Origin: a virus
Lineage: Duplodnaviria > Heunggongvirae > Uroviricota > Caudoviricetes
DNA: 8,088 nt
Strand: one strand, 5' to 3'
IMG/VR virus record: IMGVR_UViG_2690316345_000016
Shown here in pieces: positions 1-8,088 of the stretch (position 1 is its first letter; the number at the start of each line of letters is the position of its first letter). The notes beneath the pieces are model-generated. The model saw nothing but the letters and a program-made list of their open reading frames with translations, ran no database searches and was not told where the DNA came from. Both the position numbers and the translations under genes were made by a program.

Positions 1-102
1 CCGGAGAGTAACGGCATAGCAGAGAGCTTCGTGAAAACGATAAAGCGTGACTACATCAGTGTCATGCCCAAACCAGACGGGTTAACGGCAGCAAGCCAGT
101 AA
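1..102 (+). CDS. IS3-family (IS2 InsD-like) transposase OrfB, C-terminal fragment; 5' part lies outside the window and the end is apparently truncated by an internal deletion
   Basis: Frame-1 translation of 1-99 is [33 protein letters not shown], stop at 100-102. The [19 protein letters not shown] motif is characteristic of IS2 InsD. Confidence 0.65.
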
Positions 103-147
103 TGGGTTAAGTGATAACAGGTGTCTGGAAATATAGGGGCAAATCCA
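1..147 (+). mobile_element. IS2-like (IS3-family) insertion sequence, right-hand end only; the element continues leftward beyond the window
   Basis: Bases ~100-147 (taatgggttaagtgataacaggtgtctggaaatataggggcaaatcca) match the IS2 right terminal inverted repeat as I recall it, ending in GGGGCAAATCCA at 136-147. The upstream coding sequence is an IS2 InsD-type transposase C-terminus. Compared with recalled canonical IS2, about 100 bp just before the terminus appears to be missing; this is from memory, not computed. Confidence 0.7.
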
Positions 148-150
148 GCT

Positions 151-210: not shown

Positions 211-939
211 ATGAACAGAAAGCAATTCATCCAGTCACACGGAGCTACTTGCAGTAACTGGACGTGGAGTTGGTCATTTGTTAACCATGAAAAGAAGATG
301 GTCATCTTTGGGTCATGGGATGTTGAGAGTGAGCATGAGCGATCTGTAATACTCCGTGAGAAATGGGAATACAACTCAAACAACAAAAAACAACCGGGAT
401 ACACCCAGGCTCTGGAACACATCAGGTTAGTCCATGAAGGCTACGAACTTTACACCTTCAATATGGTTTTCGCAGAACATCCGGATAATCCCGAAATTGC
501 AGTAATCAAAGATTTTGAGCGTAAATTAAACAAGCGATATCTTCGTAAAGAAGGCGTTGTTTGGTATGCAGACTTCTTACCTAATCCATTCCCCGATGAA
601 ATTCCTTCAGGAGAGAGTTTTGTTGAAGGTGCAAAGACTCAAGTAACAGTGAACTACTACGAACGCGATCCAAAGGCCAGACAAGCCTGCATCCAGCATC
701 ACGGTACTACCTGTAAATGCTGTGGCTTCGATTTTGAGAAGGTCTATGGTACACATGGCCGTGGGTTCATTCATGTACATCACATCAAGCCGCTTCATAC
801 GATTGGGGAAAACTATGTAGTAAACCCCGTAACAGATATGATCCCATTATGTCCAAACTGCCATGCAATGGTACATCGTGGAAGCGGTGTACTTCCAATT
901 GCAGACTTGAAAAAGAAAATGACATTATGGAGCGAGTAA
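211..939 (+). CDS. McrA-like HNH endonuclease with a distinct Trp-rich N-terminal domain (candidate type IV / modification-dependent restriction nuclease)
   Basis: 242-aa ORF with strong SD (AGGAGG) before the ATG. The C-terminus CKCCGF...GFIHVHHIKPL...ENYVVNPVTDMIPLCPNCHAMVH is a classic zinc-finger HNH motif (CxxC...HH.xP...N...LCPNCH..H), very close in pattern to E. coli McrA (recalled). The N-terminal ~160 aa (GATCSNWTWSWSFVNHEKKMVIFGSWD...) is aromatic-rich and unassigned. Confidence 0.8.
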   Translation: MNRKQFIQSHGATCSNWTWSWSFVNHEKKMVIFGSWDVESEHERSVILREKWEYNSNNKKQPGYTQALEHIRLVHEGYELYTFNMVFAEHPDNPEIAVIKDFERKLNKRYLRKEGVVWYADFLPNPFPDEIPSGESFVEGAKTQVTVNYYERDPKARQACIQHHGTTCKCCGFDFEKVYGTHGRGFIHVHHIKPLHTIGENYVVNPVTDMIPLCPNCHAMVHRGSGVLPIADLKKKMTLWSE

Positions 940-1830: not shown

Positions 1831-2142
1831 TCAAAACGGTAATTCTCCCTGCTCACAAAACCATCCATCTTTATCATGCTGCTTATAGACTGCATTCTCA
1901 CTACTCAGATATTGCAAACCTTCCAGTACTGAACATAGCTGCGTTTCCAGTATGAACACGAAGCAAACACGCTCAATCGTGCCTAACCAGTAAGTACCTT
2001 GCTGGTGCTGGAAGAATACGCGATCCCCATATACAAACTTATCAAGGCTGTATCCCCAATAGCAGACAGTAGCCCACTTGCCTAAATGTTCAAACTGCTG
2101 TGTACCGCTTTTGATTGCCGGATCAAAACCATTCTTGCCCAT
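1831..2142 (-). CDS. Hypothetical aromatic-rich 103-aa protein
   Basis: Minus-strand ORF (MGKNGFDPAIKSGTQQFEHLGKWATVCYWGYSLDKFVYGDRVFFQHQQGTYWLG...). Upstream on the minus strand is GAGGGTG, 7 nt before the ATG. No recognisable family motif; composition differs from its neighbours. Confidence 0.5.
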   Translation of the reverse strand: MGKNGFDPAIKSGTQQFEHLGKWATVCYWGYSLDKFVYGDRVFFQHQQGTYWLGTIERVCFVFILETQLCSVLEGLQYLSSENAVYKQHDKDGWFCEQGELPF

Positions 2143-2322
2143 GTTACACCCTCGCTACCGATACTGTTTATCCATACAGTTTGTCACCACATTTCGCACA
2201 GATCCAGCCATCAAGAGCACTTACCACTAAAAATGGTAGAAATTAAAATATCGATCATTTTAATTTGATCATAAGTTAAAAGTGATTAATTATCAATCAG
2301 TTATGGAAACTGAGAGAGCAAC

Positions 2323-2832
2323 ATGAAACTCGAACATTTGGCAATTCCGATCACTTCATTGAATGGAAAATTACTCGGCGTTGAGCTGGAAACACGTGTA
2401 CTTATAGATGGTTGCCGGGTGTTGGTTGGTATAGGTAAGGAAAGTGAATACATACGTCACGTGGTCTATCAGAACCAGCTAAGAATGATTCAGGGCAAAG
2501 CCGCATGGTTTAAAGAAAAGGGGCTGTTGTGCGTGCTCAGTACTGGCAGGGGTACACGGTATGACGATCTACCATTCATACGGTACATGGCTGCTGAACC
2601 ACTGCTAACCGACGGTTACGACGTAATACGACTAAATAGACGGTTCACTGAAGAACACATCGAAAGGCTGATTTTCCCGGTACTCATCAAGAACATCATG
2701 CAGTACTGCGACAAGGTGATCGTACAAGTCACTGGCAATAACAATCACAGGATTCTACGAGAGTCGGGGATATGGGCAGTACAGGGAGAGTACAGGCCAA
2801 TCCGCTTTGAACAATGCGAACAACTTCTATAG
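2323..2832 (+). CDS. Hypothetical 169-aa protein; tentatively a degenerate, shortened EAL-like (YdiV-like) domain
   Basis: The N-terminus LAIPITSLNGKLLGVELETRV resembles the start of EAL domains (QPIvdL.tG.lvGvEaL.R; compare recalled YdiV FLPIRDNQQVLVGVELITHF). The C-terminus KVIVQVTGNNNHRILRESGIWAVQGEYRPI resembles the EAL tail (vvAEGVEt..q...l...G.d..QGy...P), but the catalytic acidic residues are replaced and the protein is ~70 aa shorter than a full EAL domain. Confidence 0.55.
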   Translation: MKLEHLAIPITSLNGKLLGVELETRVLIDGCRVLVGIGKESEYIRHVVYQNQLRMIQGKAAWFKEKGLLCVLSTGRGTRYDDLPFIRYMAAEPLLTDGYDVIRLNRRFTEEHIERLIFPVLIKNIMQYCDKVIVQVTGNNNHRILRESGIWAVQGEYRPIRFEQCEQLL

Positions 2833-2842
2833 GGAAATAACA

Positions 2843-3166
2843 ATGAAAATACTAATCGTCATGTTGGTAGTACTGCTCACATGCTGCGGCAGCGTACATC
2901 ACTCATTCATGGATAAAGCCTTTGTAGGCACCGTAGATAACAAAGCTACAATAGTACTGTTCGACGCTGGCACACGAAACGGGGTGAAGTACTACCGGCC
3001 TCAGTTTCATAGTGATTGTGGCCGCACCTACAATCCGATTTACCAGGTGGACAATGGCAGTACTATGTGCTTAATACGAGATACACGTATTACTCATTTA
3101 AAATTATACAATATGTATATGGTTAAAGTTATTCCCAATGCAAACGACAGTATCTATGAGAGGTAA
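2843..3166 (+). CDS. Small exported protein or lipoprotein (107 aa)
   Basis: Begins MKILIVMLVVLLTCCGS, a signal peptide with Cys residues after the hydrophobic core (non-canonical lipobox). GGGA lies 9 nt upstream of the ATG at 2843. The ORF track's upstream start at 2807 would overlap the previous gene and place the signal peptide internally, so 2843 is preferred. It starts 10 nt after the stop of the 169-aa gene. Confidence 0.55.
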   Translation: MKILIVMLVVLLTCCGSVHHSFMDKAFVGTVDNKATIVLFDAGTRNGVKYYRPQFHSDCGRTYNPIYQVDNGSTMCLIRDTRITHLKLYNMYMVKVIPNANDSIYER

Positions 3167-3343: not shown

Positions 3344-3805
3344 ATGAAAATTACAGAAGAGTTAATTTATAAAACATTCAGTAATACCTTTGAAGGAACA
3401 ATGATATTATTAAAGATTTCAATTCTTAGTACACTAATAACTTTATTCATTCTTATTAATGGTGCAGATCCTGGGGCGATAGAATCCATAAAGGTGGTCT
3501 TTGCTACACTTGCATTGTATGCGATGTCTGTAGGGATTGGCTTAGGTGCAATGTTGCTTTCACCAATTACCTATAAAGTGGCTGATTGTTTCGAACTTAA
3601 AGCAAATAGCCCCTTATGCAAAGTGATTAGTATCGTATATGGGATGGTGTATTTTGCTACAACATATGTAATAGCTACTTATTTGACTTATCTGATTACT
3701 GATAGTTATAGGACAGGAAAAGAATTAGTAGCTGTTTACGTAATTAGTACTGTGACAATATCTTTTATCCAAGCACGTCGTCTCTATAAACTCATTGGTC
3801 AATAA
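3344..3805 (+). CDS. Integral membrane protein, ~4 predicted TM helices (153 aa)
   Basis: Four hydrophobic stretches (approx. residues 20-40, 50-76, 95-118, 127-142) in MKITEELIYK...MILLKISILSTLITLFILING...IKVVFATLALYAMSVGIGLGAMLL... Very AT-rich. Only a weak SD (GGTG). Confidence 0.55.
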   Translation: MKITEELIYKTFSNTFEGTMILLKISILSTLITLFILINGADPGAIESIKVVFATLALYAMSVGIGLGAMLLSPITYKVADCFELKANSPLCKVISIVYGMVYFATTYVIATYLTYLITDSYRTGKELVAVYVISTVTISFIQARRLYKLIGQ

Positions 3806-3871: not shown

Positions 3872-4231
3872 TTAAAATTCATCTAAAGTACTTCTTTTCT
3901 CGTCTATTACATTAAACTCTAAAAGTCCATCATTAACCTCAAAAGTAACGGTGGTTGAATATGAATCATCAATATCCATATCCTTACACATGTTATAAAT
4001 GAAGTAGCTAATGCTATAATGCAAAACGTAGATATTTTCGTCTAAGTATTCAATATCATCTATAATGAAATAGTCAGTAGATTGTGCTCTTGAATCAATG
4101 AAATCTAAATCAATATCCAAAATCTTTTTTAAAGTTATGTCACTATGATTTTTATCTAAGTAGTCATAGAGAATTTTTTCAGCTTCTTTCCCGTGGGTTG
4201 GAAGTGTTAAATTGAATGGATAGGTAGTCAT
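3872..4231 (-). CDS. Strongly acidic small protein (119 aa), function unknown; candidate DNA-mimic or immunity-type protein
   Basis: Minus-strand ORF MTTYPFNLTLPTHGKEAEK...; by my count 18 Asp + 8 Glu versus 7 Lys + 2 Arg. SD-like AAAGG ~10 nt upstream of the ATG on the minus strand. Extremely AT-rich. Confidence 0.55.
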   Translation of the reverse strand: MTTYPFNLTLPTHGKEAEKILYDYLDKNHSDITLKKILDIDLDFIDSRAQSTDYFIIDDIEYLDENIYVLHYSISYFIYNMCKDMDIDDSYSTTVTFEVNDGLLEFNVIDEKRSTLDEF

Positions 4232-4405: not shown

Positions 4406-6845
<2,440 letters not shown>

Positions 6846-6857
6846 TAAGGATATTAA

Positions 6858-8088
<1,231 letters not shown>

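What the first reader, a model, noticed from the sequence alone, without database searches (positions are those of the whole stretch)
2323..3166. Miniature degenerate EAL-like protein paired with a small exported or lipoprotein
The 169-aa protein shows the characteristic start (P-I-x-x-L-x-G-x-L-G-V-E-L) and end (V-I-x-x-x-T-G...G-I-x-x-x-Q-G-E-Y-x-P) of an EAL domain but lacks the catalytic acidic signature and is about 70 aa too short. This would make it a non-enzymatic, YdiV-style EAL derivative, possibly a regulator or c-di-GMP decoy carried on mobile DNA. It is followed 10 nt later by a gene for a small signal-peptide-bearing protein, suggesting a two-gene unit whose product acts at the envelope.
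Basis: inference. Interest (0 to 1): 0.5.

Follow-up and report, generated by a model that had tools for sequence, protein, structure and literature searches.

The report
Prophage mini EAL-like protein plus lipoprotein
A defective E. coli prophage carries a shrunken, catalytically dead relative of the Salmonella flagella-repressing protein STM1697, always followed by a small lipoprotein gene and preceded by an SOS (LexA) box, which suggests a phage tool for re-programming the host cell surface, although its target is untested.

Summary
ORF 2323-2832 encodes a 169-aa protein, and 10 nt later ORF 2843-3166 encodes a 107-aa protein with a signal peptide.

- **What the 169-aa protein is.** It gives no Pfam EAL hit. 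It is nonetheless a clear homologue of the degenerate EAL-like anti-FlhD4C2 factor STM1697 (PDB 5hxg, E=3e-17; family profile 4e-30) and more distantly of YdiV. Its AF2 model (pLDDT 83.5) matches 5hxg best, then YdiV, then canonical EAL domains.
- **What it has lost.** It lacks about 55-60 internal residues, including the whole DDFGTG segment, and 7 of 11 catalytic or metal-binding positions. It still evolves under purifying selection (dN/dS 0.13-0.20).
- **What it keeps.** Eight of the 11 STM1697 positions that contact FlhD are present, including the hot-spot residues F160 and L173.
- **Context.** It sits in a serine-recombinase prophage. In this window the prophage is cut by IS2 and IS1 and has a frameshifted terL. 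In 14 of 16 loci across at least 10 enterobacterial genera the same lipoprotein follows an EAL-like gene. A conserved LexA box and a divergent 103-aa gene lie upstream.
- **Best reading.** A non-enzymatic protein-binding adaptor, most likely anti-FlhD. The caveat is that a 176-aa form is common in non-flagellate Klebsiella.

I rate it a new variant of a known kind, of moderate interest.

The parts
2323..2832 (+). Gene for the 169-aa miniature, catalytically degenerate EAL-like protein of the STM1697/YdiV clade
   Evidence: ORF. PDB 5hxg_A E=3.3e-17; short-family profile 4e-30. AF2 pLDDT 83.5 and Foldseek top hit 5hxg_A at 4.9e-11. Catalytic positions and FlhD-contact positions. dN/dS 0.13-0.20.
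2843..3166 (+). Gene for a 107-aa signal-peptide protein from a lipoprotein family. It starts 10 nt after the EAL-like stop and is probably co-transcribed and translationally coupled. The mature part has two conserved Cys (C59, C76).
   Evidence: An EAL-like gene lies immediately upstream in 14 of 16 loci. No Pfam, PDB or fold match.
2164..2179 (.). LexA (SOS) box CTGTTTATCCATACAG in the divergent intergenic region
   Evidence: It is the only match in the window, against 0.09 expected. CTG..CAG is invariant in 7 diverged intergenic regions. The strict box is found in 13 of 16 loci, 11 of them beside the module. It lies 18-33 nt from the (-) gene start and 119-179 nt from the EAL start.
2250..2297 (.). 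Cluster of four TGATCAAT-like (GATC-containing) sites, a candidate operator in front of the EAL-like gene
   Evidence: The 'AAAATGATCAAT' block just upstream of the EAL-like gene is conserved in all relatives, and also in L025. Predicted sigma-70-like hexamers lie at 2221-2249 (+) and 2296-2268 (-); these are consensus matches only.
1831..2142 (-). Divergently transcribed conserved 103-aa gene (phrog_2100, unknown function). Its start codon lies 21 nt from the LexA box. It is a neighbour of the module and a possible SOS-controlled phage regulator.
   Evidence: dN/dS 0.06-0.44.

Best explanation
The 169-aa product is a stand-alone, catalytically dead and internally truncated EAL-fold protein. 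It belongs to the STM1697/YdiV ('EAL-like anti-FlhD4C2 factor') clade and is carried as an accessory gene by a serine-recombinase temperate phage of Enterobacteriaceae.

Shown here:
- Homology and EAL fold.
- Loss of 7 of 11 catalytic or metal positions and of the whole DDFGTG strand and loop.
- Purifying selection.
- Prophage location.
- A conserved operon-like pairing with a lipoprotein gene.
- A conserved LexA box in the upstream divergent promoter region.

Inferred: the protein cannot bind or hydrolyse c-di-GMP and works as a protein-binding adaptor through the retained helix (window residues 115-128, R-LIFPVLIKNIMQY). This helix corresponds to the FlhD-binding helix alpha7 of STM1697. The most likely target is the FlhD subunit of the flagellar master regulator FlhD4C2. 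Expression would then lower class II flagellar transcription and flagellation. Possible benefits are less flagellin exposure, lower energy cost, or loss of the receptor for flagellotropic phages.

The co-transcribed lipoprotein is exported. With no Asp at +2 it is predicted to go to the outer membrane. It probably provides a second, independent alteration of the cell surface. The SOS box suggests that at least the divergent 103-aa gene, and possibly the operon, responds to DNA damage and prophage induction.

The confidence given (0.45) is for the full mechanism including FlhD as the target. That the protein is a non-enzymatic EAL-like adaptor of this clade I put at about 0.9.
For: Homology and fold:
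- phmmer to the PDB gives STM1697 (5hxg) at E=3.3e-17 in two blocks, query 5-78 and 90-169.
- The profile of 18 short proteins gives STM1697 at 4.1e-30 and YdiV at 1.2e-4; the next hit (DosP EAL) is at 0.32.
- The AF2 model has pLDDT 83.5 and pTM 0.80. Foldseek gives 5hxg_A at 4.9e-11 with TMq 0.69, then YdiV 3tlq/4es4, then RocR, LapD, MorA, YkuI and others.
- STM1697 and YdiV both bind FlhD, and neither binds nor cleaves c-di-GMP (PMC5622320).

FlhD-contact positions:
- Eight of the 11 contact positions of STM1697 exist in the window protein. They read L95, F108, R115, V120, L121, K123, N124, Y128 against V147, F160, K167, L172, L173, K175, H176, Y180. The hot-spot pair F160/L173 is identical.
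- The best-conserved block between the two proteins is exactly this region (45.5 of 66 bits).

Dead active site.

Selection: dN/dS is 0.13-0.20 within the 169-aa subclade and 0.09-0.20 to 182-184-aa relatives.

Context:
- Prophage setting.
- Pairing with the lipoprotein in 14 of 16 loci from E. coli, Klebsiella, Lelliottia, Pantoea, Scandinavium, Buttiauxella, Phytobacter and Enterobacter sp. R1; cluster members are also named from Kosakonia, Cedecea and Pseudescherichia.
- A full-length 213-aa EAL-like gene occupies the same slot before the same lipoprotein in Enterobacter sp. R1. This shows the short forms derive from a full-length phage-borne gene.
- LexA box.
Against: - No experiment or complex model was possible, so FlhD binding is an inference from homology.
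- Three of the 11 FlhD contacts (V115, L116, L136) lie in the deleted segments.
- F160, K167 and L173 are also conserved in an ordinary EAL domain (P0256). Their retention is therefore not specific evidence for FlhD binding.
- A 176-aa member of the short clade is an intact ORF on 723 Klebsiella contigs. Its dN/dS against the E. coli copy is about 0.19, from only 10 synonymous and 7 non-synonymous changes. K. pneumoniae is classically non-flagellate and lacks flhDC (textbook knowledge, not tested here). That variant also has S, Q and C at the K167, K175 and Y180 positions.
- The AF2 model is weak (pLDDT 58-65) across residues 71-100, around the deletion junctions.
- Pfam EAL gives no hit at E<=1.
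- Whether the operon is expressed in lysogens or only on induction is unknown.
Confidence: 0.45

Rival explanations
1. It is the same kind of non-enzymatic EAL-like adaptor, but its partner is not FlhD. The partner could be another host regulator, or a phage protein such as the SOS-linked 103-aa neighbour or a phage repressor. [quoted passage not shown]
For: The 176-aa form is maintained in non-flagellate Klebsiella. Three FlhD contacts are deleted, and several polar contacts vary across the short clade. The constant neighbourhood with the 103-aa gene and the LexA/GATC-rich control region hints at a phage-internal role. Other degenerate EAL domains bind unrelated partners (PMC3509220, abstract listed).
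Against: The only two solved relatives by sequence both bind FlhD (PMC5622320). The most conserved block is the FlhD-binding helix. In L025 and L014 the EAL-like gene and the 103-aa gene occur without each other, so they are not obligate partners.
Confidence: 0.33
2. It is a cyclic-dinucleotide decoy or sponge. A dead EAL pocket would sequester c-di-GMP or a defence-system cyclic nucleotide, changing biofilm and motility signalling or blunting CBASS-type immunity.
For: It has an EAL fold. E21, R25, E92 and Q154 of the substrate site are retained. It is phage-borne, and phage nucleotide sponges are an established concept (general knowledge).
Against: The DDFGTG strand and loop and the N, K and EGVE positions are deleted or replaced. 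The much more complete relatives STM1697 and YdiV do not bind c-di-GMP (PMC5622320). There is no PADLOC or anti-defence family hit.
Confidence: 0.07
3. It is a decaying remnant of a full-length phage EAL-like gene with no present function, riding in a defective prophage.
For: The prophage in the window is defective. It has a terL frameshift, and IS2 and IS1 cut both ends. The gene has suffered stepwise deletions, from 213 to about 190, then 176, then 169 aa. It is truncated to 129 and 89 aa in two genomes, L021 and L024.
Against: dN/dS is 0.13-0.20 among the 169-aa copies, so purifying selection continued after the last deletion. The ORF is intact on 164 contigs for the exact sequence and on many more contigs for variants. 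The AF2 model is confident and compact. The deletions are in frame and remove whole structural elements.
Confidence: 0.06
4. It is an active c-di-GMP phosphodiesterase of unusually small size.
For: Only the weak C-terminal similarity to PdeH (NF008617, E=1.9e-6, 27 bits against a cut-off of 190).
Against: Seven of 11 catalytic or metal positions are missing, including both Asp of DDFGTG, the Lys of KxD and the EGVE glutamates. There is no Pfam EAL hit.
Confidence: 0.01

Closest known systems
Salmonella STM1697 (PDB 5hxg), an EAL-like anti-FlhD4C2 factor
   Same: It is the closest relative by sequence (E=3.3e-17; profile 4e-30) and by fold (Foldseek 4.9e-11). Both are stand-alone single-domain proteins with a degenerate active site. 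The FlhD-binding helix motif F-P-[VL]-L-[IV]-K-x-I-x-x-Y-C-D-K is conserved, and the hot-spot residues F160 and L173 are identical.
   Different: It is 169 aa against 235 aa. Two internal deletions remove about 13 aa after the degenerate 'N' strand and about 37 aa covering the helix after the ExxE strand plus the DDFGTG strand and loop, and with them three FlhD contacts. It is prophage-borne, paired with a lipoprotein and preceded by a LexA box. STM1697 orthologues sit alone between fabI and sapF on the chromosome, with no LexA box.
E. coli YdiV / RflP and Salmonella STM1344 (PDB 3tlq, 4es4)
   Same: It is also an EAL-like, non-catalytic FlhD-binding protein. It is the second-best hit by profile (1.2e-4) and by fold (6.8e-6, TMq 0.68-0.70).
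   Different: It is much more distant (13-15% identity in the structural alignment). According to PMC5622320 the key YdiV interface residues (F155, F168, F181, A184) are already not shared with STM1697. YdiV is full length and chromosomal.
Canonical EAL c-di-GMP phosphodiesterases (Pfam PF00563; e.g. RocR, PdeH/YhjH, YkuI)
   Same: They share the overall fold family (Foldseek E 1e-5 to 1e-3), the N-terminal 'G-V-E-L-x-x-R' motif and the C-terminal 'Q-G' motif.
   Different: There is no Pfam hit. It is about 65 aa shorter, and 7 of 11 catalytic positions are lost. It should not be filed as a phosphodiesterase.
Phage surface-modifying lipoproteins (Cor of phi80/N15, Llp of T5, Bor of lambda): a functional analogy for the downstream gene only
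   Same: It is a small phage-encoded lipoprotein with conserved cysteines, located in an accessory slot near the packaging genes.
   Different: tblastn against 50,697 phage records finds only one hypothetical gene, in jumbo phage EJP2. No PDB sequence or fold match was found. Membership is not supported, and the analogy is a lead only.
Other prophage-encoded regulators of flagella (TldR RNA-guided repressors, AppY, PchE)
   Same: The concept is the same: temperate phages re-tune host flagellar expression (papers listed, e.g. PMC13418256, PMC10057817, PMC7369912).
   Different: These are unrelated proteins with different mechanisms (DNA-binding regulators rather than a FlhD-binding EAL scaffold).

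Membership tests
EAL domain c-di-GMP phosphodiesterase (Pfam PF00563) | Score above the Pfam gathering threshold (31.3 bits) | tested here: not met
   No hit at E<=1 for the window protein. The 184-aa relative P0005 scores 13.7 bits, while the 229-aa Citrobacter relative P0023 scores 41.1 bits.
EAL domain c-di-GMP phosphodiesterase (Pfam PF00563) | EAL (TIM-barrel-like) fold | tested here: met
   An AF2 model with pLDDT 83.5 matches about 50 EAL structures at Foldseek probability 0.97-1.00, with TMq 0.43-0.70. About two beta/alpha units are missing.
EAL domain c-di-GMP phosphodiesterase (Pfam PF00563) | Catalytic, metal and substrate residues: E(AL), R, N, ExxE, DD(FGTG), KxD, EGVE, Q(G) | tested here: not met
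   Only E21, R25, E92 and Q154 remain. The others are replaced by S73, M89, R103, N105, Q135 and T137, and DD is deleted.
STM1697/YdiV-type EAL-like anti-FlhD4C2 factors | Significant sequence homology to STM1697 or YdiV, closer than to catalytic EAL domains | tested here: met
   5hxg at 3.3e-17. The short-only profile gives 5hxg at 4.1e-30, YdiV at 1.2e-4 and DosP at 0.32.
STM1697/YdiV-type EAL-like anti-FlhD4C2 factors | Stand-alone EAL-like domain with a degenerate active site | tested here: met
   Single-domain 169-aa ORF with a degenerate site.
STM1697/YdiV-type EAL-like anti-FlhD4C2 factors | Complete EAL-like domain of about 230-240 aa | tested here: not met
   169 aa, with internal deletions relative to P0120 and 5hxg.
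STM1697/YdiV-type EAL-like anti-FlhD4C2 factors | FlhD-contact residues of STM1697 (V115, L116, L136, V147, F160, K167, L172, L173, K175, H176, Y180; PMC5622320) | tested here: inconclusive
   Eight of 11 positions are present: 4 identical, 3 conservative and one H-to-N change, which is also N in the Citrobacter orthologues. Three are deleted. F160, K167 and L173 are also conserved in an ordinary EAL domain.
STM1697/YdiV-type EAL-like anti-FlhD4C2 factors | Binds FlhD and represses class II flagellar genes and motility | not testable with these tools
   This needs a complex prediction or wet-lab assays. The occurrence of the 176-aa form in Klebsiella argues for caution.
Bacterial lipoproteins (downstream gene) | N-terminal signal peptide with positive n-region and hydrophobic h-region | tested here: met
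   M-K-ILIVMLVVLL.
Bacterial lipoproteins (downstream gene) | Lipobox [LVI][ASTVI][GAS]-C | tested here: inconclusive
   The window copy reads L-T-C-C, with Cys at -1, and fails the PROSITE-type (PS51257-like) lipobox pattern I ran. Five relatives (LLTGC, LSVGC, LLTAC, FTTSC) pass. The Cys is nearly invariant in 40 homologues.
LexA-regulated (SOS) promoters | CTGT-N8-ACAG box, conserved among orthologous regions | tested here: met
   One match in 8 kb against 0.09 expected. It is invariant in 7 diverged regions. The strict box is found in 13 of 16 loci, 11 of them beside the module. It is absent upstream of chromosomal STM1697 orthologues.
LexA-regulated (SOS) promoters | LexA binding and DNA-damage induction | not testable with these tools
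   This needs EMSA, or mitomycin C treatment followed by RT-qPCR.
Degenerate c-di-GMP-binding EAL receptors (LapD, FimX type) | Retention of the nucleotide-binding pocket despite loss of catalysis | tested here: not met
   The pocket elements N, DDFGTG, K and EGVE are deleted or replaced. The fold match to LapD and FimX is weaker than to STM1697.

The most novel reading that the evidence does not exclude
The EAL fold has been whittled down repeatedly in one group of temperate phages. At least three lineages carry different in-frame deletions, giving forms of 169-200 aa from a 213-aa phage-borne ancestor. The result would be a minimal protein-binding scaffold. Together with an outer-membrane lipoprotein, it would form an SOS-linked 'surface shut-down' cassette. 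On DNA damage or prophage induction, or at a basal level in lysogens, the cassette would switch off flagella through FlhD while the lipoprotein masks an envelope receptor. That would give superinfection exclusion against flagellotropic and other phages, or immune stealth for the host. It would be the first phage-encoded anti-FlhD4C2 factor and the smallest functional EAL-derived domain.
Probability: 0.2. Interest if true: 0.7.

Novelty: new variant of a known kind. Interest (0 to 1): 0.55.

Why it matters
Degenerate EAL proteins such as YdiV and STM1697 show how enzyme folds are recycled into protein-protein regulators of motility and virulence. Several points would follow if the reading is right.

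- **A smaller functional unit.** A phage-borne, SOS-associated version only 169 aa long would extend that idea to viruses. It would also define which part of the EAL fold is sufficient for partner binding: the N-terminal hairpin, the alpha7 helix and the C-terminal QG unit.
- **A new route for phage control of flagella.** This has consequences for flagellin-triggered immunity and for susceptibility to flagellotropic phages.
- **An annotation gap.** The family is invisible to Pfam and is annotated 'hypothetical protein' in hundreds of E. coli and Klebsiella genomes, so c-di-GMP and EAL censuses miss it.
- **A clue from Klebsiella.** Its presence in non-flagellate Klebsiella, if the protein is functional there, would point to a second, unknown target of this protein class.

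Tried and rejected
- Pfam scan of the 169-aa protein gave no family at E<=1. NCBIfam gave only a sub-threshold PdeH match.
- PHROGs gave phrog_32988 (unknown function), which turned out to be the full-length STM1697-like family.
- Megablast of the window against phage records matched only the IS2 and IS1 ends. tblastn of the three module proteins against 50,697 phage records gave one weak hit each. This prophage lineage has no sequenced isolate in that collection.
- Foldseek of the EAL-like model against viral structures (BFVD) gave nothing below E=0.35.
- The lipoprotein has no Pfam, PDB-sequence or fold match. Its AF2 model is only pLDDT 70 and Foldseek gave nothing below E=1.7. I therefore rejected any claim that it is a Cor, Llp, Bor or spanin homologue. 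A spanin or lysis role was also rejected because lysozyme genes lie elsewhere in related prophages and the protein has no C-terminal transmembrane segment.
- The 103-aa divergent protein has no Pfam, NCBIfam, PADLOC or PDB match, and all 63 homologues are either unnamed or called 'hypothetical protein'. An antirepressor role is only a guess from the LexA box.
- PADLOC gave no defence-system match for the module.
- Rfam gave no RNA family in the window.
- Literature searches for a prophage EAL-like/FlhD link found nothing. Two related searches listed nothing relevant by title or abstract. The one candidate paper read (PMC5425062) concerns an unrelated prophage gene.
- I tried to assign the LexA box to a specific promoter by hexamer geometry. 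The candidate -35/-10 pairs were weak and conflicted with the ribosome-binding site, so the assignment is left open.
- The 81-aa gene call in L012 looked like a truncation. The DNA is 100% identical to the window, so it is a gene-caller artefact.
Full report
**1. What is in the window**

The 8,088-bp window is a prophage fragment bounded by insertion-sequence ends. IS2 occupies 1-149 and IS1 occupies 7970-8088. Between them lie the following genes:

| Coordinates | Strand | Product |
|---|---|---|
| 211-939 | + | HNH endonuclease |
| 940-1731 | + | DUF6998 protein; matches PADLOC methyl-directed restriction enzyme models at E=3e-61 |
| 1831-2142 | - | conserved 103-aa protein |
| 2323-2832 | + | the 169-aa ORF of the finding |
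| 2843-3166 | + | 107-aa signal-peptide protein |
| 3344-3805 | + | 153-aa membrane protein |
| 3872-4231 | - | 119-aa protein |
| 4441-5022 | + | terminase small subunit |
| 5066-5458 and 5433-6842 | + | terminase large subunit, split by a +1 frameshift |
| 6858-7388 | + | head-tail joining protein |
| 7373-7978 | + | lambda-type portal, cut by IS1 |

In intact relatives the element starts with a large serine recombinase next to yeaG. It continues into capsid and tail genes.

**2. Checking the observation**

The coordinates, the 10-nt spacing and the quoted motifs are all correct.

Both ORFs are real genes.
- The exact 169-aa sequence occurs on 164 E. coli contigs.
- dN/dS against 89%-identical copies is 0.20 and 0.13, and against 182-184-aa relatives it is 0.09-0.20.
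- The exact 107-aa sequence is listed in 167 blocks of the collection.

**3. Identity of the 169-aa protein**

Pfam finds nothing at E<=1. NCBIfam gives only a sub-threshold PdeH match over residues 99-168.

A search of PDB sequences is decisive. STM1697 (5hxg) matches at E=3.3e-17 in two blocks, query 5-78 to STM1697 5-81 and query 90-169 to STM1697 142-223. To avoid circularity I built a profile from 18 short proteins only. It hits STM1697 at 4.1e-30, YdiV at 1.2e-4 and nothing else below 0.03.

An AF2 model built on the family alignment is confident (pLDDT 83.5, pTM 0.80), except around residues 71-100. Foldseek ranks the STM1697-FlhD complex first (4.9e-11, TMq 0.69), then YdiV, then dozens of canonical EAL domains.

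**4. What has been lost and what has been kept**

I aligned the protein with STM1697, its Citrobacter orthologues and a canonical EAL fragment. The window protein has two in-frame deletions.
- About 13 aa are missing after the strand that carries the degenerate 'N' position.
- About 37 aa are missing that cover the helix after the ExxE strand and the whole DDFGTG strand and loop.

Relatives of 176-193 aa still have 'WLDDxG'. Only the 169-aa subclade has lost it. That subclade comprises the window, P0002, and L020 from Scandinavium.

Of 11 canonical catalytic, metal or substrate positions, only E21, R25, E92 and Q154 remain. Hydrolysis can be excluded on sequence grounds. c-di-GMP binding is unlikely, since the more complete STM1697 and YdiV neither bind nor cleave it (PMC5622320).

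The strongest conservation with STM1697 lies in residues 90-169 (45.5 of 66 bits). This stretch contains the FlhD-binding helix. PMC5622320 lists 11 STM1697 residues that contact FlhD. Eight of these positions exist in the window protein:

| STM1697 | V147 | F160 | K167 | L172 | L173 | K175 | H176 | Y180 |
|---|---|---|---|---|---|---|---|---|
| Window | L95 | F108 | R115 | V120 | L121 | K123 | N124 | Y128 |

The mutationally validated hot spot F160/L173 is identical. V115, L116 and L136 fall in the deletions.

There is a caveat. F160, K167 and L173 are also conserved in an ordinary EAL domain, so they are partly structural residues.

**5. The family and its history**

An exhaustive profile search of 1.84 billion representatives finds only 146 clusters at E<=1e-3. 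Most are 219-246 aa long. Seven clusters are complete proteins of 200 aa or less.

Chromosomal STM1697 orthologues in Citrobacter sit alone between fabI and sapF, with no lipoprotein and no LexA box.

In Enterobacter sp. R1 (L025) a full-length 213-aa EAL-like gene occupies the phage slot, in front of the same lipoprotein.

A rough neighbour-joining tree shows three groups of shortened proteins:
- the 169-193-aa clade;
- a 194-200-aa pair, which groups with the full-length L025 protein;
- a divergent 173-184-aa group in Pantoea and Phytobacter. This group keeps the middle of the domain but has lost the EGVE-to-QG unit.

The fold has therefore been shortened more than once, and differently each time. 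Two genomes carry truncated copies of 129 and 89 aa, so the gene is dispensable in some hosts.

**6. The partner gene and the neighbourhood**

The 107-aa protein belongs to a family of 88 or more proteins of 90-125 aa. The family has a signal peptide, a lipobox Cys, two further conserved Cys and a 'YYRPQF' core. In the window copy the residue before the lipidated Cys is Cys rather than Gly, Ala or Ser, so lipidation of this particular copy is uncertain. It has no detectable relative of known function or fold.

In 14 of 16 non-redundant loci from many genera an EAL-like gene lies immediately upstream. The two exceptions are Enterobacter cloacae L014 and Pluralibacter L022, which have the lipoprotein alone. 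The pairing is real, but the lipoprotein does not strictly depend on the EAL-like gene.

Downstream of the pair is a variable cargo slot. It holds DUF3800, Hcp, mSLOG/DUF488/DuOB genes, or the membrane protein seen here.

**7. An unexpected regulatory feature**

An alignment of seven diverged intergenic regions revealed an invariant CTG-N10-CAG palindrome. In the window it reads CTGTTTATCCATACAG at 2164-2179.
- It is the only CTGT-N8-ACAG match in 8 kb, against 0.09 expected.
- The strict box is found in 13 of 16 loci. In 11 of them it lies next to the module.
- Two more loci carry a one-mismatch variant in the same intergenic region (seen in the alignment for L002).

This is the LexA (SOS) box consensus (established knowledge). 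It lies 18-33 nt from the start codon of the divergent 103-aa gene and 119-179 nt from the EAL-like start.

In L025 a perfect box precedes the full-length EAL-like/lipoprotein pair, with no 103-aa gene present. In L014 the box travels with the 103-aa gene, without an EAL-like gene. The sequence therefore does not settle which unit LexA controls.

A second conserved block, 'AAAATGATCAAT' plus several TGATCAAT-like sites at 2250-2297, lies just before the EAL-like gene and may be an operator.

**8. Most likely mechanism**

What is shown is a dead, shortened EAL-fold protein of the anti-FlhD4C2 clade. It is under purifying selection, encoded by a prophage, and linked to a lipoprotein gene and an SOS box.

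What is inferred is that it acts by binding a protein through the retained alpha7 surface. FlhD is the best candidate, because both characterised relatives bind it. The outcome would be reduced class II flagellar transcription.

The main argument against FlhD as the universal target comes from Klebsiella. The 176-aa form is an intact ORF on 723 Klebsiella contigs. Its dN/dS against an E. coli copy is about 0.19, though from few substitutions. K. pneumoniae is normally non-flagellate (textbook knowledge, not tested here). That variant also differs at three polar or aromatic contact positions.

My estimates are:
- about 0.9 that it is a non-enzymatic EAL-like adaptor of this clade;
- about 0.45 that FlhD is its target in E. 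coli;
- about 0.33 for a different partner;
- 0.07 or less each for a nucleotide decoy or a functionless relic.

**9. Novelty and verdict**

No paper in the searchable library links a prophage to an EAL-like/FlhD factor. Two related searches listed nothing relevant by title or abstract. Phage control of flagella is known only through unrelated regulators. BFVD contains no EAL-fold viral protein that resembles this one.

I classify the finding as a new variant of a known kind. It is a miniaturised, phage-borne, SOS-associated branch of the STM1697/YdiV family. Interest is moderate (0.55). The homology is solid and the reduction of the fold is striking, but the function remains an inference.

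Noticed in passing
window 2164-2179: A canonical LexA (SOS) box, CTGTTTATCCATACAG, lies between the divergent 103-aa gene and the EAL-like gene. It is invariant across diverged relatives and absent upstream of chromosomal STM1697 orthologues.
   Followed up: yes
window 1831-2142 (-): A conserved 103-aa gene (phrog_2100, all homologues 'hypothetical' or unnamed) has its start codon 21 nt from the LexA box. It may be an SOS-controlled phage regulator or antirepressor, but it has no family, PDB or defence-system match.
   Followed up: partly
window 2250-2297: A cluster of four TGATCAAT-like, GATC-containing sites lies here, and a conserved 'AAAATGATCAAT' block lies just upstream of the EAL-like gene in all relatives. 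It is a candidate operator or a Dam-sensitive element.
   Followed up: partly
window 5066-6845 (frameshift near 5451-5457): The terminase large subunit is split into 131-aa and 471-aa pieces by a one-base insertion relative to the intact 587-aa gene of L002. The same frameshift is present in L009-L011, so a whole E. coli lineage carries this defective prophage.
   Followed up: yes
window 1-149 and 7970-8088: An IS2 end and an IS1 end bound the prophage segment. IS1 truncates the portal gene, and IS2 replaces the left part of the prophage that is present in L009.
   Followed up: partly
window 211-939 and 940-1731: An HNH endonuclease gene abuts (939/940) a DUF6998 gene. The DUF6998 product matches PADLOC 'Type II methyl-directed restriction enzyme' at E=3.4e-61. 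This is likely a prophage-encoded anti-phage defence pair.
   Followed up: partly
window 2843-2890: The lipobox of this copy reads LLTC-C instead of LLTG-C (Gly to Cys at -1) and fails the PROSITE-type lipobox pattern I ran. This exact protein is nevertheless the common E. coli allele (listed in 167 blocks of the collection).
   Followed up: partly
window 3344-3805 (+) and 3872-4231 (-): A 153-aa protein with about 3 hydrophobic segments and a 119-aa protein (phrog_13663) fill a variable cargo slot. In relatives this slot holds DUF3800, Hcp, or mSLOG/DUF4326/DUF488/DuOB genes instead.
   Followed up: partly
window 4406-4435: A strong 12-bp GC-rich hairpin with T-runs on both sides (a bidirectional terminator-like site) lies immediately upstream of the terminase small-subunit gene.
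   Followed up: no
L025 1504-3380: Enterobacter sp. R1 carries a full-length 213-aa EAL-like gene behind a perfect LexA box (TACTGTATATGTATACAGTA). It is followed by the lipoprotein homologue and two further small signal-peptide proteins. This looks like the ancestral-type arrangement.
   Followed up: partly
L001 13557-17037: In E. coli AREA_C483 an IS3 copy carrying a group II intron (ltrA) is inserted between the DUF6998 gene and the 103-aa gene of the same prophage type.
   Followed up: no
L021 2424-2813; L024 2431-2700: The EAL-like gene is truncated to 129 aa in a Buttiauxella MAG and to 89 aa on a Pantoea plasmid, while the lipoprotein gene downstream is kept.
   Followed up: partly
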